From positions 1 through 64,000 of IMG/VR virus record IMGVR_UViG_3300028549_000249: a DNA stretch of 64,000 nt; one strand, written 5' to 3'. Position 1 is the stretch's first letter, and each line of letters opens with the position of its first letter. Below the pieces are notes generated by a model, which was not told where the DNA came from, ran no database searches, and worked only from the letters and a program-made list of their open reading frames with translations. Of this stretch, positions 155 through 64,000 are shown in pieces. A program made the position numbers and the translations under genes. The stretch is from a virus. Its lineage: Duplodnaviria; Caudoviricetes.

Positions 155-186
155 TACTTCGCCTAACAAGTAAACCTAGCAAAGTC

Positions 187-810
187 ATGCCACTCGAAAA
201 GCCATATTGCTCTCTCCTCGATGTTCAGCGCGAAACCAAAAGCTCTGGTTCGGAGAATGACGAGCTGTATGAGGAGTGTATCACTCGCGCCTCACGCTGG
301 ATCGATAGTCAATGTCAACGGGATTTCTGGTTTCACGACCATTCCAGCATAGACTACTTGGTCCCTCGTGGGCGCGTGCTAGGGGACCTTGCCTTGCTTC
401 CCTTCCCGATCATCACTTTGGACGCCGTGTGGGTCTTCTCTGATAAGCTGGCAGGCAAGACTGATAACGATCTGCTCGCCATCGATGAGTATTACTATGA
501 AGCTGGGGAGCCTTCGATCTCATGCGAGTCCGACCAGTTCGGTGATTACCCGTTCAAGGGGTTCTTCATTGTCCGTGGGACGTTCGGCTACCCGCTCGCC
601 GAGACCGACCCAGAGACTACACCACCACCAACTATCCCCGCTGAAATCAGACGGGCAGCCTGCCTTGTCGCCTCTGCATGGTCAGACGAATTACACAAGG
701 AGGAGACTGGTCTGGATGGATCACGCATGGAAGTGCTAGATACCAAGATCCCAGCCGAGGCACGGACGCTTATCAAGAAGTGGGTTGAGTTGATCAACTT
801 CTCCTTCTGA
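187..810 (+). CDS. head-tail connector/adaptor (gp6/gp15-like)
   Basis: YCSLLDV...CITRASRWIDSQCQRDF N-terminus and IPAEIRRAACLVAS C-terminus typical of gp6-like connectors; first in the neck gene run. Confidence 0.7.
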   Translation: MPLEKPYCSLLDVQRETKSSGSENDELYEECITRASRWIDSQCQRDFWFHDHSSIDYLVPRGRVLGDLALLPFPIITLDAVWVFSDKLAGKTDNDLLAIDEYYYEAGEPSISCESDQFGDYPFKGFFIVRGTFGYPLAETDPETTPPPTIPAEIRRAACLVASAWSDELHKEETGLDGSRMEVLDTKIPAEARTLIKKWVELINFSF

Positions 811-1337
811 TGAGTAGCTTCAGAATATCTACGTCCACGCATGAGGCGGAAGCCGCGCTCAAGAAGGTCCGTGACGCTCTAACACCTTCTAAGGTGGATC
901 ACGTTGTCCAGCGTGTAGCTTTCGTGACTTATCGGCGTCTCGTTACTCGGACCCCTAAGCGATGGACTGGCCACACTCGGAAGAGCTGGCGTGTGACGCG
1001 CAACGGTGCCGCTAACTATACGGTCACTAATCGAAGCAAAGTCATGGTGTTCCTCGAAGAGGGAACGAAGGCGCACGGACCCGTGAAGGCGAAGCGCCTG
1101 TTCATCCCTAAGAATCGCAGGGCTGCCTTTGCTGGTCCGGCTGGAGTGTTCGCTGCGAACAAGGCAGCTCAGGCTTCAGGATCGAAGTTGCCTTTTATCA
1201 TAGGCCGTGATTACCTCTTGGTTACAAAGGTGCGAGGGATCAAAGCTCTCCACATCGTTCGAGACCATCGCCCGTTCGCCGCTACGACCCTCCGGTCTGG
1301 GATGCGACAATACATCAAATACATTCTAACAACATGA
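810..1337 (+). CDS. HK97 gp10-like tail completion/neck protein
   Basis: TPKRWTGHTRKSWRV ... YTVTNRSKVMVFLEEGT motif; position after the connector. Confidence 0.65.
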   Translation: MSSFRISTSTHEAEAALKKVRDALTPSKVDHVVQRVAFVTYRRLVTRTPKRWTGHTRKSWRVTRNGAANYTVTNRSKVMVFLEEGTKAHGPVKAKRLFIPKNRRAAFAGPAGVFAANKAAQASGSKLPFIIGRDYLLVTKVRGIKALHIVRDHRPFAATTLRSGMRQYIKYILTT

Positions 1338-61320: not shown

Positions 61321-61980
61321 ATGAAGAAGACGGACAACCCTCCGCCTGCCACCGTAGCGGTTCGCAAGCGGACGAGACAACAGTCCCAGACCAAAGCAAG
61401 TGCTACTGCAATGGTCGAGGGCATCACAACAGACAAGGAACCAAAGAAATCTAACAAGCCAATCCATACCCAAGCGGGCACGGCGGTAACGGTAGATGCG
61501 TGCGGGAATCCTAAGGAAGCAGAAGGGAGACCAGACCGGAGGCGTGACCCCGAACTCGTTGCCTCCCTCCTCCAATACATCTTTGCTGGGAACCCATATA
61601 AGCATGCGTGCGTCTTAGCGGGCGTGGATGAGACCACGTTCTTCCGGTGGATGCGCGAAGGAAAGACCGCTGAGGAAGGCACGCTCGCCTATAGCTTTTA
61701 CCAGCGCGTTAAAAGGGCCAATGCCGATGCCGCCCACAGGAACATGATGAGGATTCAAAAGTCCGTGCCAGGATGGCAGTCTTCTGCATGGTTCCTCGAA
61801 CGCCGATTCCCTGATGAGTATGGTGCGACGTCGAGAATCAAACTCGGTAGCGATGAGGAGAATCCTCTCGTGGTCGGAACTGTCGGTCTCCAAGTGGACG
61901 ACCGTGTGCTGTCTGACAAGGGAGCATTCGCCGCCCTCAAAGCGGTCCTTGCTCGCAAGCCCGAACTGCTGAACGGATGA
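61321..61980 (+). CDS. terS: terminase small subunit
   Basis: GNPYKHACVLAGVDETTFFRW HTH; WQSSAWFLERRFPDEYG; upstream of TerL. Confidence 0.8.
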   Translation: MKKTDNPPPATVAVRKRTRQQSQTKASATAMVEGITTDKEPKKSNKPIHTQAGTAVTVDACGNPKEAEGRPDRRRDPELVASLLQYIFAGNPYKHACVLAGVDETTFFRWMREGKTAEEGTLAYSFYQRVKRANADAAHRNMMRIQKSVPGWQSSAWFLERRFPDEYGATSRIKLGSDEENPLVVGTVGLQVDDRVLSDKGAFAALKAVLARKPELLNG

Positions 61981-62099
61981 GCCTCCTGCCATTACTTGCC
62001 ACCTTGTATTTCTCAGGGGCACAGACGAGTGGGATCATCATGCCGAAGATCCGAACCTATGCTGTGTCGAAGTTCGAGCCTCAGAGGAAACGTAGATGA
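61977..62099 (+). CDS. 40-aa gene between terS and terL ending QRKRR
   Basis: ATGA overlaps at both ends; hydrophobic N-terminus. Confidence 0.5.
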   Translation: MSLLPLLATLYFSGAQTSGIIMPKIRTYAVSKFEPQRKRR

Positions 62100-64000
62100 G
62101 TGCCCCTGAAGACCTGAGCCTTGAGGATGAGGATTTCGAGGAGCCGCTTCCCGACATCATCACCGCTCCGATTGAGCCACCTTTAACAGATTCCGATCTG
62201 ATGGAGGAGCAGGAATACGCGCAGGCGTTGGAGTTCCTGTGTGCAGCCGCCAAGGAGGACTTCCCTTCGTGGTTGAACGTCATGTGGCCGCAGATCGAAG
62301 GCACCACCTACATCATCTCCCGCTTCCACCAATACCTCGCCGAGCTGGTGCAGGATGTGGTCGCGGGGAATCGGTCTCCCAACCAATCGGTCTCGGTGCC
62401 GCCTCAGCACGGTAAGAGCCGGATGCTGTCAGTTCGAGCCGCAGCGTGGATCTTGGGCCACTCCCCTGGAAAGCACATCGCCCTCACAGGATTCTCGTTC
62501 AGCCTGCTTGCCGACTTCCTTCGAGAGATCAAGGACATTGTAGCTTCGCCGATGTATCAGATGGTCTTCCCGGGAGTGGTCCCCGTGGAGGGATACAACA
62601 GACAGGGGTCGGTCATGTTTTCTAACGGATCATCGATTCAGGTCACATCCGCAGGTTCAAAACTAACAGGACGACGGGTTGACTGGCTGATCGTGGATGA
62701 CCCGCACGCCGGACGCTTCGAGGCCGAATCCGTGGGCAACCGTAAGAAGGTGGAGCAGTGGTTCTACGGCGACTGTATGTCGCGTCTGTCACCCTCAGCT
62801 AAGGTGTTCCTGATTGGAACGCGCTGGCACCCTGAGGATCTGCACGGGATCGTAACCGGAGCACAGAAGCAGCAAGAGCTGATAGACGGCGGATTCGCGG
62901 AGCAGACCTTTGAGGTGACCAACCTGAAAGCCATCGCCGAGATGGGTGACCCTATAGGGCGTGAGGTGGGAGAGCCGCTATTCCCTGAGCAGCGACCACT
63001 GAAGTTCCTTCAGGCGCTCAAGATCAAGATGCCGGGATACGAGTGGGACTCTCAATACAACGGCACCCCTCGCTCCTCCACCGGAGATGTGGTGGACGTT
63101 AAGAAGATCAAGCTGATCGACATGGCCGATGTCCCCACCGACATTGAGTGGTATCGTGGATGGGACCCCGCCATCACGGACTCCTCGGCCGCCGACTTCA
63201 CTGCGGGTGCGTTGTGCGCTTGCCGGATGTCTCCAGATGGGGAACCCATGGAGTTCTACCTCATCGACATGAAGCGAGAGCAAGCGGCGTGGGCGAAGAT
63301 GAGATTCATGGTGATCGAAACTAGCAAGAACGACATGATGCGTGGCGCTCCTATCGGACGGGTAGGGATCGAAGGCGTGGGAGGATTCAAGGCGGTGTTC
63401 GAGGATGTGAAGCGCGAGCTGATGGGTCGCCTGCATGTCGAGCCGCGAAACTTCCAAGGAGGCAAGCTCCTACGTGCTCAGCCATGGCTCAACCTCGTGG
63501 AGGCCGGACGCTTCTACATGGTCCGAGCACCGTGGAACAAGGAGTTCATCCTTGAGCTTGAGAAATTCCCTCTGGGAAATCATGACGACCAATGTTTGAC
63601 AGTTAAGACTTTGATCTCGACATCCGAAGGGTTGAAGTGTATCGGAGATGTATGCGAAAACGAACTCGTCCTAACAAGAAAGGGGATGCGCCGAGTGTTG
63701 TGGTCGGGGAAGACAGGAAGAGCGCCAGTGATCTCGCGTTACGGAATAGAGGGAACTGTAAGCCATCCAGTGTGGACGGAGAATCGGAGTTGGGTGCCAC
63801 TGGGATCATTGCGGGATTCGGACCTTCTGGTTGTAGACGCGAATCAGTTAGATTCAAAGGTCGCTGGTATCATAGATACCCAGACTCAAAACAAAAGGCG
63901 ATCAGGCGATACTTCTATGCTCATGACTCTAATCGGAAAAGCCCACGCGCATTGCACCGCGATGTTTGGGAAAGTGCAAACGGTTGCGCCGTCCCTCTCG
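62096..64000 (+). CDS. terL: terminase large subunit (partial, intein-containing)
   Basis: Continuous frame read by hand: VPPQHGKS (Walker A), LIVDDP (Walker B), IGTRWH, GWDPA, DFTAG, FP...HDDQ. Confidence 0.95.
   Translation, partial: MSAPEDLSLEDEDFEEPLPDIITAPIEPPLTDSDLMEEQEYAQALEFLCAAAKEDFPSWLNVMWPQIEGTTYIISRFHQYLAELVQDVVAGNRSPNQSVSVPPQHGKSRMLSVRAAAWILGHSPGKHIALTGFSFSLLADFLREIKDIVASPMYQMVFPGVVPVEGYNRQGSVMFSNGSSIQVTSAGSKLTGRRVDWLIVDDPHAGRFEAESVGNRKKVEQWFYGDCMSRLSPSAKVFLIGTRWHPEDLHGIVTGAQKQQELIDGGFAEQTFEVTNLKAIAEMGDPIGREVGEPLFPEQRPLKFLQALKIKMPGYEWDSQYNGTPRSSTGDVVDVKKIKLIDMADVPTDIEWYRGWDPAITDSSAADFTAGALCACRMSPDGEPMEFYLIDMKREQAAWAKMRFMVIETSKNDMMRGAPIGRVGIEGVGGFKAVFEDVKRELMGRLHVEPRNFQGGKLLRAQPWLNLVEAGRFYMVRAPWNKEFILELEKFPLGNHDDQCLTVKTLISTSEGLKCIGDVCENELVLTRKGMRRVLWSGKTGRAPVISRYGIEGTVSHPVWTENRSWVPLGSLRDSDLLVVDANQLDSKVAGIIDTQTQNKRRSGDTSMLMTLIGKAHAHCTAMFGKVQTVAPSLS
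63593..64000 (+). mobile_element. intein in TerL, inserted after HDDQ (partial)
   Basis: Block A CLTVKTLISTSEGLKCIGDV replaces the expected V-D-A; block B GTVSHPVWTENRSWVPLGSL (TxxH). Confidence 0.88.
63652..64000 (+). CDS. HNH homing-endonuclease-like ORF in the -1 frame inside the intein (partial)
   Basis: Frame open from 63607; ...SVRFKGRWYHRYP...RRYFY...ALHRDVWESANG..P resembles the segment preceding HNH cores; the core itself would lie past the edge. Confidence 0.65.
   Translation, partial: MRKRTRPNKKGDAPSVVVGEDRKSASDLALRNRGNCKPSSVDGESELGATGIIAGFGPSGCRRESVRFKGRWYHRYPDSKQKAIRRYFYAHDSNRKSPRALHRDVWESANGCAVPL

What the first reader, a model, noticed from the sequence alone, without database searches (positions are those of the whole stretch)
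164..63676. CTAACA/TGTTAG hexamer strongly over-represented, with fixed phasing at promoters
Seen (hand count): about 113 copies (~83 CTAACA, ~30 TGTTAG on +). My rough chance estimate is ~25, assuming ~55% GC, which I did not compute. CTAACA starts 19-20 bp upstream of the -35 box at six promoters (23678, 48001, 49496, 50772, 57637, 59280). It occurs as tandem pairs 11 bp apart (2802/2813, 10233/10244, 57626/57637) and as inverted pairs (20701/20735, 42167/42201, 42385/42411). It also sits in a terminator loop and in CDSs, often through CTA or TTA Leu codons. Inference: binding site of an abundant phage DNA-organising or activator protein, or the target of the modification operon.
Basis: partly seen in the sequence, partly recalled or inferred. 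Interest (0 to 1): 0.7.

Follow-up and report, generated by a model that had tools for sequence, protein, structure and literature searches.

The report
Iterated CTAACA word saturating a phage
This 88-kb phage keeps the short asymmetric DNA word CTAACA (best form TCTAACAG) four to six times more often than its proteins require, on both strands, evenly spread and built into its repeated promoters, so an unidentified protein very probably reads it on double-stranded DNA.

Summary
Observation confirmed. The window holds 84 CTAACA and 32 TGTTAG, against 18.2±4.9 in dinucleotide shuffles; the whole 87,985-bp phage genome holds 129 and 40. It is the top hexamer. Codon-preserving shuffles do not remove the excess: 84-87 against 20, and 34 against 6, inside genes. 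The refutation condition therefore fails.

The fold excess is the same on both strands and in every genome segment. The signal is thus read on double-stranded DNA, and coding constraints explain the apparent strand bias. The full word is T-CTAACA-G.

- Sites are more evenly spaced than random.
- All six tandem pairs are exactly 11 bp apart.
- Thirteen repeated leaderless promoters carry the word at -54..-49.
- A 6.3-kb tail-fibre/lysis module of different codon usage has none.

Relatives of the phage lack the excess. An unrelated phage lineage with the same Shine-Dalgarno-free, leaderless style shares the word, its flanks, the 11-bp tandems and the dispersed excess.

Best reading (about 0.45): recognition site of an unidentified DNA-binding protein that binds head-to-tail like OmpR/PhoB-type regulators, perhaps specific to the host clade. 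Modification target, Chi-like signal and primase site remain rivals.

This scan earlier reported analogous iterated words (AGTACT, GGCGCC) in other phages.

The parts
163..63676 (.). Dispersed set of 116 CTAACA/TGTTAG sites in the window (169 in the genome). Mean spacing is 522 bp and the best form is T-CTAACA-G.
23678..23683 (+). Promoter-upstream site, 19 bp before TTGCAA at 23697
48001..48006 (+). Promoter-upstream site at -54..-49 from the leaderless ATG at 48055 (TTGCAA at 48020)
49496..49501 (+). Promoter-upstream site (TTACAA at 49515), preceded by the 17-bp palindrome
50772..50777 (+). Promoter-upstream site (TTGCAA at 50791)
57626..57642 (+). Tandem pair 11 bp apart upstream of TTGCAA at 57656. 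This is the two-site form of the cassette.
59280..59285 (+). Promoter-upstream site, 20 bp before TTGCAA at 59300
2802..2818 (+). Tandem pair 11 bp apart, just upstream of the ATG at 2834, with no TTGCAA box
10233..10249 (+). Tandem pair 11 bp apart, just upstream of the ATG at 10263, with no TTGCAA box
20701..20927 (.). Intergenic hub: an inverted pair (20701+, 20736-) plus 20922-, inside a repeat of about 230 bp that is shared with 42.2 kb
42167..42415 (.). Second copy of the hub: sites at 42167+, 42201-, 42378-, 42385+ and 42410-, followed by the palindrome and a promoter at 42455
43668..43699 (+). Terminator hairpin whose 6-nt loop is CUAACA (site 43681-43686)
14368..20700 (+). Stretch of 6.3 kb without any site. 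It holds a 1268-aa tail-fibre-like gene (GC3 0.53 against 0.60-0.70 elsewhere), a tail assembly chaperone and the endolysin. It is probably a recent acquisition.
52075..57480 (+). Candidate writer/reader genes: a glucosyltransferase-like protein, a partial N6/N4 methylase match, a PAPS-reductase+DUF3440 protein, and three ParB_N proteins
33517..34536 (+). DnaG-like primase (weak zinc-ribbon and Toprim matches); relevant to the primase-site rival
38303..39712 (+). Phage RecA homologue; relevant to the Chi-like rival

Best explanation
CTAACA, in full T-CTAACA-G, is the recognition word of a sequence-specific protein that binds double-stranded DNA. Selection maintains it all over the phage genome.

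At promoters the protein would bind head-to-tail, one site per helical turn. This is the geometry of OmpR/PhoB-type winged-helix regulators. One or two sites are centred near -51.5 and -62.5 of a repeated leaderless promoter cassette that has a weak -10 (CATCCT), and there the protein would help RNA polymerase.

The roughly 150 further single sites lie in either orientation, about one per 520 bp, and are evenly spread. They would keep the same protein on phage DNA as a tag or reservoir.

Shown: the word is selected at the DNA level, is independent of orientation, is phased at 11 bp, is fixed in the promoter cassette, and is shared by an unrelated phage lineage of the same host type.

Inferred: that a protein reads it, what kind of protein, whether host or phage encodes it, and what the dispersed sites do.
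For: - Counts: 116 sites against 18.2±4.9 in shuffles; top hexamer.
- Codon-aware excess of 4.2-fold (sense) and 5.6-fold (antisense). It is uniform in seven of eight genome segments on both strands.
- The orientation bias in leaders and CDS follows from baseline composition.
- One-mismatch variants are not enriched, apart from mild CTATCA and CTAACN.
- T at -1 in 26 of 43 CTA-ACA sites, a synonymous position. TCTAACAG occurs 18 times against 1.0 expected.
- All six tandem pairs are exactly 11 bp apart; about 0.2 would be expected at any one spacing (my arithmetic).
- 13 of 23 TT[GA]CAAAGG promoters carry the word invariant while its flanks vary.
- Spacing is more even than random: 39 against 56 gaps under 200 bp, P=0.0004.
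- Unrelated IMG/VR contigs L178/L114/L164 and L179 show the same excess inside TerL and portal genes (17 against 3.8±1.7, 12 against 2.5±1.5 and 7 against 1.3±1.1). They also share the T at -1, the 11-bp tandems at promoters, and SD-less leaderless starts.
- A control word gave no such contig.
- ArcA sites are 2-5 direct repeats at 11-bp centre-to-centre spacing with core TGTTA (PMC3798270, PMC4173790).
Against: - No candidate reader was identified. Pfam, PHROG and NCBIfam scans of about 70 proteins found no winged-helix regulator. Many small proteins remain unscanned.
- Regulators are not known to need about 150 single sites inside genes, so the role of the dispersed sites is guesswork.
- The promoter copies belong to a duplicated cassette and are not 13 independent events.
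- The closest relatives available (PolA 50% identity or less, and Aeromonas phage HJ05) lack the excess. Conservation of individual sites could therefore not be tested.
- The evidence for sharing across lineages rests on a few short contigs.
Confidence: 0.45

Rival explanations
1. The word is the target of a phage DNA-modification system. Candidate genes are the operon at 52-57.5 kb, which holds methylase-like, glucosyltransferase-like, PAPS-reductase/DUF3440 and ParB-like proteins, and the TAGT-family glycosyltransferase at genome 70591-71454. More sites would mean more modified positions.
For: - A short asymmetric 6-8-bp word is the usual form of Type IIG, Type III and BREX-type methylase targets, and TGTTAG has A at position 5 (my knowledge).
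- The phage carries the operon and a TAGT glycosyltransferase (2e-46).
- The excess is independent of orientation and genome-wide.
- The genome has purged palindromic restriction sites, for example CTCGAG 0 against 34 expected. Restriction pressure is therefore strong.
Against: - No known modification system selects for more target sites.
- The methylase matches are partial and below the curated cut-offs.
- No TET/JBP and no C5-methylase is present.
- The 11-bp tandems and the fixed promoter position are features of binding sites.
Confidence: 0.2
2. The word is a Chi-like signal read by the host RecBCD or AddAB enzyme. It would turn degradation of linear phage DNA into RecA loading for recombination-dependent replication.
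For: - It is the most frequent short asymmetric word, is spread over the genome and is evenly spaced.
- Unrelated phages of the same host type share it.
- The phage encodes RecA and a RuvC-like resolvase.
- There is precedent: Chi is the top octamer in P1 and LLS (PMC12315714; PMC3784561).
Against: - The fold excess is equal in both orientations in all segments, with no clustering at the ends. In LLS, 20 of 23 Chi sites share one orientation.
- Phages with their own Rec functions mostly lack Chi.
- Chi does not explain the 11-bp tandems or the fixed promoter position.
- TCTAACAG shows no excess in 121 Bacteroidota, 61 Cyanobacteriota and 3 other genomes.
Confidence: 0.1
3. The excess comes from a mutational or repair drive rather than from function. 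This would resemble biased very-short-patch repair, or what has been proposed for the HIP1 palindromes of cyanobacteria.
For: - The excess is in all frames, on both strands and higher in non-coding DNA.
- It is absent from a probably recent acquisition.
- CCAACA/TGTTGG is about 2-fold depleted on both strands.
Against: - That depletion accounts for only about 20 of an excess of about 95 sites, and other variants show no two-strand pattern.
- A drive does not predict even spacing, 11-bp tandems, or invariance in promoters.
Confidence: 0.08
4. The word is the recognition site of the phage's DnaG-like primase. On the template 5'-CTAACA the primer would be pppGUUAG. The word would be enriched because a hexamer is too rare by chance to start enough Okazaki fragments.
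For: - A DnaG-like primase and a DnaB helicase are encoded.
- Sites lie on both strands and are evenly spaced.
- Some DnaG primases start at CTA (my knowledge).
Against: - The orientation-specific excess does not switch anywhere along the genome.
- Known primase sites are 3-5 nt long and are not enriched.
- The idea does not explain the promoter phasing or the 11-bp tandems.
- It does not explain the same word in small unrelated phages.
Confidence: 0.05
5. There is no single signal. The count would be the sum of duplicated promoter cassettes, A/C-rich leaders containing TAA stop codons, and codon bias.
For: - About 18 sites lie in cassettes.
- 20 sites lie within 20 nt upstream of start codons, against 4 expected.
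- A few sites use the TAA as a stop codon.
Against: - Inside CDS bodies alone the excess has z=15-16 (sense) and z=11-12 (antisense) under synonymous shuffles.
- CTA is followed by ACA in 44 of 281 cases.
Confidence: 0.03

Closest known systems
Direct-repeat boxes of OmpR/PhoB-family response regulators, for example the ArcA box (PMC3798270, PMC4173790)
   Same: The half-site is 5-7 bp. Units lie head-to-tail at 11-bp centre-to-centre spacing, with 2-5 units at or upstream of promoters. The ArcA core TGTTA equals the first five bases of the reverse complement, TGTTAG.
   Different: No such regulator was found in the phage. ArcA is gammaproteobacterial, whereas this phage does not use Shine-Dalgarno sites. 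No regulon has about 150 single sites inside genes.
Chi enrichment in phages P1 and LLS (PMC12315714, PMC3784561)
   Same: A short asymmetric word is the most frequent oligomer of a phage genome, and selection accumulates it.
   Different: Chi sites are oriented and cluster at the ends, occur mostly in phages without Rec genes, abound in the host genome, and have no role in promoters.
Iterated palindromes: HIP1 of cyanobacteria, and the AGTACT and GGCGCC words that this scan reported in other phages (e1-306881, e1-267771, e1-3726508)
   Same: A hexamer is kept several-fold above codon-aware expectation in all frames. It lies in promoters at fixed positions, in a genome that has purged restriction palindromes.
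   Different: This word is not a palindrome. It forms direct 11-bp tandems and is shared with unrelated phages of one expression style.
Stoperators of mycobacteriophage L5, and the dispersed asymmetric C1 operators of phage P1 (my knowledge)
   Same: Many copies of an asymmetric protein-binding site are scattered through a phage genome.
   Different: Those sites are 13-17 bp long, number about 20-30, lie between genes and face one way relative to transcription.

Membership tests
OmpR/PhoB-type tandem regulator site | Direct repeats at about one helical turn (10-11 bp centre to centre) | tested here: met
   All 6 tandem pairs are exactly 11 bp apart. The same holds in L163, L164, L118 and L167.
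OmpR/PhoB-type tandem regulator site | Sites at or just upstream of the -35 box of the regulated promoters | tested here: met
   In 13 cassettes the sites lie at -54..-49 and -65..-60. In L164 and L179 they lie between -35 and -10.
OmpR/PhoB-type tandem regulator site | A cognate winged-helix regulator is identified | tested here: inconclusive
   None appeared among about 70 phage proteins scanned. Many small ORFs were not scanned, and the host is unknown.
Chi site | Strand-skewed excess in the host chromosome | tested here: inconclusive
   TCTAACAG shows no excess in 121 Bacteroidota, 61 Cyanobacteriota and 3 other genomes. The true host is unknown.
Chi site | Orientation bias or end clustering in the phage genome | tested here: not met
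   The fold excess is equal on both strands in 7 of 8 segments.
Chi site | Recognition by RecBCD or AddAB | not testable with these tools
   This needs biochemistry.
Methyltransferase / modification target | A complete cognate DNA methylase or other writer is encoded | tested here: inconclusive
   Only partial PF01555 matches below the cut-off were found (24.1 against 26.7 bits). PAPS-reductase, ParB_N and glycosyltransferase proteins are present. TET and C5-methylase are absent.
Methyltransferase / modification target | The base in the word is modified in virion DNA | not testable with these tools
   No methylome data are available.
Highly iterated palindrome (HIP1 type) | The word is its own reverse complement | tested here: not met
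   CTAACA and TGTTAG differ.
L5-type stoperator | Sites lie between genes and face one way relative to transcription | tested here: not met
   About 120 of 169 sites lie inside CDS, in both orientations.

The most novel reading that the evidence does not exclude
The word is an identity tag of a host clade. An abundant host protein of an unidentified bacterial group that does not use Shine-Dalgarno sites and uses leaderless mRNAs would read TCTAACAG. Unrelated phages of that group would then independently load their genomes with it. They would use it at promoters, and as dispersed sites to recruit or soak up that protein. This would be a new kind of host-factor capture by phage DNA itself.
Probability: 0.2. 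Interest if true: 0.85.

Novelty: new variant of a known kind. Interest (0 to 1): 0.62.

Why it matters
Selection has rewritten about a quarter of all Leu-Thr codon pairs, and many leaders, of an 88-kb phage to hold one 6-8-bp word. An unrelated phage lineage has done the same. That implies a reader protein of large effect which nobody has described.

Finding it would explain three things:
- the activator element of a family of leaderless phage promoters;
- why some phages saturate their DNA with one word while purging restriction sites;
- possibly the host group of a set of marine or environmental phages that are known only from metagenomes.

The word also gives a simple sequence marker for recently acquired modules, which are the regions free of sites.

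Tried and rejected
- Relatives by DNA. A megablast search against GenBank phages found nothing.
- Promoter-cassette patterns. Searches in IMG/VR and in JGI metagenomes gave only chance hits.
- Closest PolA homologues (66-68% identity, P0001 and P0002). Conservation of sites in close relatives is therefore untested.
- IMG/VR relatives found through PolA (50% identity or less) and Aeromonas phage HJ05. They show no CTAACA excess. Some carry weaker two-strand words of their own.
- The genome-contig collection. The PolA profile found nothing. The three-unit array pattern hit more than 120 genomes of many phyla, but most hits are plain 11-bp tandem repeats.
- Proteins shared between this phage and the enriched contigs. 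None was found at E<0.01, apart from generic TerL and helicase matches.
- Pfam scan of L132 proteins. It showed no DNA-binding family.
- Named relatives of the enriched contigs. None was close enough to name a host.
- tRNA genes. There are none.
- Literature search for the word itself. It gave nothing relevant.
- Similarity to the SPO1 late -35 box, to IHF sites and to UP elements. I considered each and dropped it because the orientation or the sequence does not fit.

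
Full report
**What the DNA is.** The window is the first 64 kb of a one-contig virus record of 87,985 bp. IMG/VR classes it as having direct terminal repeats and CheckV rates it complete. GC is 53.7%. All credible genes lie on the + strand.

The encoded functions are:
- a tape-measure protein, a 1268-aa tail-fibre-like protein, a tail assembly chaperone and an endolysin;
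- a DnaB helicase, a family-A polymerase with a UDG-like N-terminus, a DnaG-like primase and an SNF2-type helicase;
- RecA, a RuvC-like nuclease, RNase H, a ligase and the portal protein;
- an operon with glucosyltransferase-like, partial methylase-like, PAPS-reductase/DUF3440 and three ParB_N proteins;
- a TAGT-family glycosyltransferase, with no TET/JBP and no C5-methylase in the genome.

The window has 84 CTAACA and 32 TGTTAG. Dinucleotide shuffles give 18.2±4.9, with a largest value of 32. Order-0 and order-2 Markov expectations are 26.6 and 20.5. CTAACA is the top hexamer of all 4096. The genome has 129 and 40.

This covers the six promoters, the three 11-bp tandems, the three inverted pairs and a terminator whose six-base loop is exactly the word.

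**It is not codon usage.** Inside CDS bodies, shuffling synonymous codons within each gene gives 19.9±4.0 CTAACA against 84-87 observed, and 6.1±2.4 TGTTAG against 34 observed. Shuffling codon order gives 14.8 and 5.6. Both frames that lack an in-frame stop are used on each strand. Of 171 Leu-Thr dipeptides, 44 are written CTA-ACA, although both codons are minor ones, and ACA follows CTA in 44 of 281 cases. In the polymerase gene the sites mostly sit on Leu-Thr pairs that homologues also have, so the word is written mainly through synonymous choice.

**It is read on double-stranded DNA.** The 3:1 strand bias disappears once the coding baseline is taken into account. The excess is 4.2-fold on the sense strand and 5.6-fold on the antisense strand. 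It ranges from 3.9- to 9-fold on both strands in seven of eight genome segments, with no switch of polarity anywhere. In the leaders, which are A/C-rich and G-poor, the reverse word is about 35 times less likely by composition (my arithmetic). This accounts for 20 forward and 0 reverse sites within 20 nt upstream of start codons, where 4 would be expected for evenly scattered sites. An RNA-level or single-strand signal would not enrich the complement equally.

**The word is longer than six bases.**
- One-mismatch variants are not enriched, except mildly CTATCA and CTAACN, on both strands.
- T precedes the word in 26 of 43 CTA-ACA sites, a free third codon position, against a 20% background.
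- G follows it in 53-67% of the sites in the frames where the preference shows.
- Inside genes TCTAACAG occurs 18 times against 1.0 expected, and CTGTTAG 18 times against 1.8.
- The promoter copies have the same flanks.

**Arrangement.**
- All six tandem pairs in the genome are exactly 11 bp apart. About 0.2 pairs would be expected at any one spacing (my arithmetic).
- After one 6.3-kb empty stretch is removed, sites are more evenly spaced than random. Gaps under 200 bp number 39 against 56 expected (P=0.0004), and gaps over 1 kb number 13 against 21.6 (P=0.0012).
- The empty stretch (14.4-20.7 kb) holds the tail-fibre-like gene, a chaperone and the endolysin. Its large gene has GC3 of 0.53 against 0.60-0.70 elsewhere. 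This fits a recently acquired module that has not yet gathered sites.

**Promoters.** Of the 23 matches to TT[GA]CAAAGG, 13 carry tTCTAACAgTTGAAA 19-20 bp upstream. Four of these have a second copy 11 bp further up. In the cassettes where an ATG follows six bases after the -10 (the leaderless ones), the word lies at -54..-49 from that ATG, and at -65..-60 when doubled. An A/T-rich stretch lies between it and the -35 box. The -10 is weak (CATCCT). The word is invariant while its neighbours vary. Promoters without the word mostly have better -10 boxes and stand in front of replication genes and the structural genes beginning near 76.3 kb. The copies derive from a duplicated cassette, so they are not independent events.

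**Relatives lack it, an unrelated lineage has it.** Aeromonas phage HJ05 (PolA 46% identity) and all IMG/VR relatives found (50% or less) show no excess. A scan of IMG/VR for the two-unit pattern returned mostly chance hits, but also several informative contigs:
- L178, L114 and L164 form one family, and L179 is a distant relative of it. They have no protein similarity to this phage.
- In them the same word is the top hexamer and is dispersed through the TerL and portal genes.
- Codon-aware tests give 17 against 3.8±1.7 in L178. In L179 they give 12 against 2.5±1.5 on the sense strand and 7 against 1.3±1.1 on the antisense strand, with T at -1 again.
- Their promoters read TTGACA-at-CTAACA-N5-CTAACA-taat, followed by an ATG seven bases on. 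They are therefore leaderless as well.
- L132, and the related large contigs, carry arrays of three direct plus three inverted units at 10-11-bp phasing in front of nearly every gene.

A control scan with the permuted word ACTACA gave no contig with a comparable dispersed excess. Its best isolated-site ratio was 2.8, against 4.6 and 3.6 for these contigs and 4.1 for this phage.

**Host type.** This phage does not use Shine-Dalgarno sites: 23% of starts have one, against 28% at control positions and 77% in HJ05. The enriched contigs are the same (0-29%), whereas only 13 of 57 non-enriched contigs are. The word thus goes with a host type, not with a phage lineage. The host is unknown. TCTAACAG shows no excess in 121 Bacteroidota, 61 Cyanobacteriota and 3 other genomes.

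**Interpretation.** The sharp word, the flank preferences, the 11-bp head-to-tail tandems and the fixed promoter position are the marks of a protein-binding site. They match the geometry of OmpR/PhoB-type regulators. ArcA sites, for instance, are two to five direct repeats at 11-bp spacing with core TGTTA. This is a likeness in how it works, not membership, because no such protein was found.

What the roughly 150 dispersed sites do is inferred only.

- The Chi-like reading fits the genome-wide, host-linked excess and the phage's RecA. It fails on orientation, on end clustering, on the promoter phasing and on the host genomes sampled.
- The modification reading cannot be tested here and does not exclude the main one.
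- A repair drive and a primase site explain less.

**Limits.** Gene calls are my own longest-ORF calls. The evidence for sharing across lineages rests on short metagenomic contigs.

Noticed in passing
whole window and genome: Palindromic restriction-type sites are almost purged against codon-aware expectation: CTCGAG 0/34, GAGCTC 2/37, GTCGAC 0/29, CGATCG 1/27, CCGCGG 0/25, GGATCC 2/24, GATATC 0/19, GGTACC 0/19. CCWGG and GTAC contexts are near zero.
   Followed up: partly
all gene starts, e.g. 1334, 7428, 27157, 47068, 48841: Shine-Dalgarno sites are not used (23% of starts against 28% at control positions). Leaders are A/C-rich and G-poor, and many genes are leaderless behind a conserved cassette that begins ATGTCCAATCCATCC.
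   Followed up: partly
window 20700-20930 and 42165-42385: Two copies of an intergenic element of about 230 bp with a near-identical core. Each is flanked by CTAACA/TGTTAG sites and followed by a promoter. It could be a regulatory hub, an origin or a small RNA gene.
   Followed up: partly
e.g. 20673-20689, 23660, 42425, 49480: The 17-bp palindrome TTTGACCGTCGGTCAAA often lies directly upstream of the promoter-linked CTAACA. Parts of it are also enriched inside genes.
   Followed up: no
genome 70591-71454 (L106:6591-7454): A TAGT-family (TET-associated) glycosyltransferase (2e-46) is present, yet the genome has no TET/JBP and no C5-methylase. Its substrate base is unknown.
   Followed up: partly
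window 14666-18472: The 1268-aa tail-fibre-like gene has lower GC3 (0.53), 34 ACA codons but no CTAACA site. It looks like a recent import.
   Followed up: partly
whole genome: A second, weaker two-strand word: CTATCA 44 against 25.6 and TGATAG 23 against 9.3. It may be a tolerated variant of the main word.
   Followed up: no
L001+L002 (Aeromonas phage HJ05): HJ05 carries about 20 copies of the 16-bp palindrome TTGCAACCGGTTGCAA, or near variants, many of them inside genes.
   Followed up: no
L132 (IMG/VR 3300012667_000971), 1700-9550: Nine intergenic arrays have the form [CTAACAGnnn]x3 - GCATGC - [nnnCTGTTAG]x3, with CCTAACG variants and hairpins, about every 0.9 kb.
   Followed up: partly
L010, L051, L011, L006: Some distant relatives have two-strand enriched hexamers of their own (AACTCA/TGAGTT, GCCCCG/CGGGGC, CCGGAA/TTCCGG, CAATCA/TGATTG), at 2-4 fold.
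   Followed up: no
L221, L227, L231, L232, L236, L241, L251 (Clostridia genomes): A recurrent element: three TAACTAACAnn units followed by AATTTTAAG and a hairpin, in several gut Clostridia assemblies.
   Followed up: no
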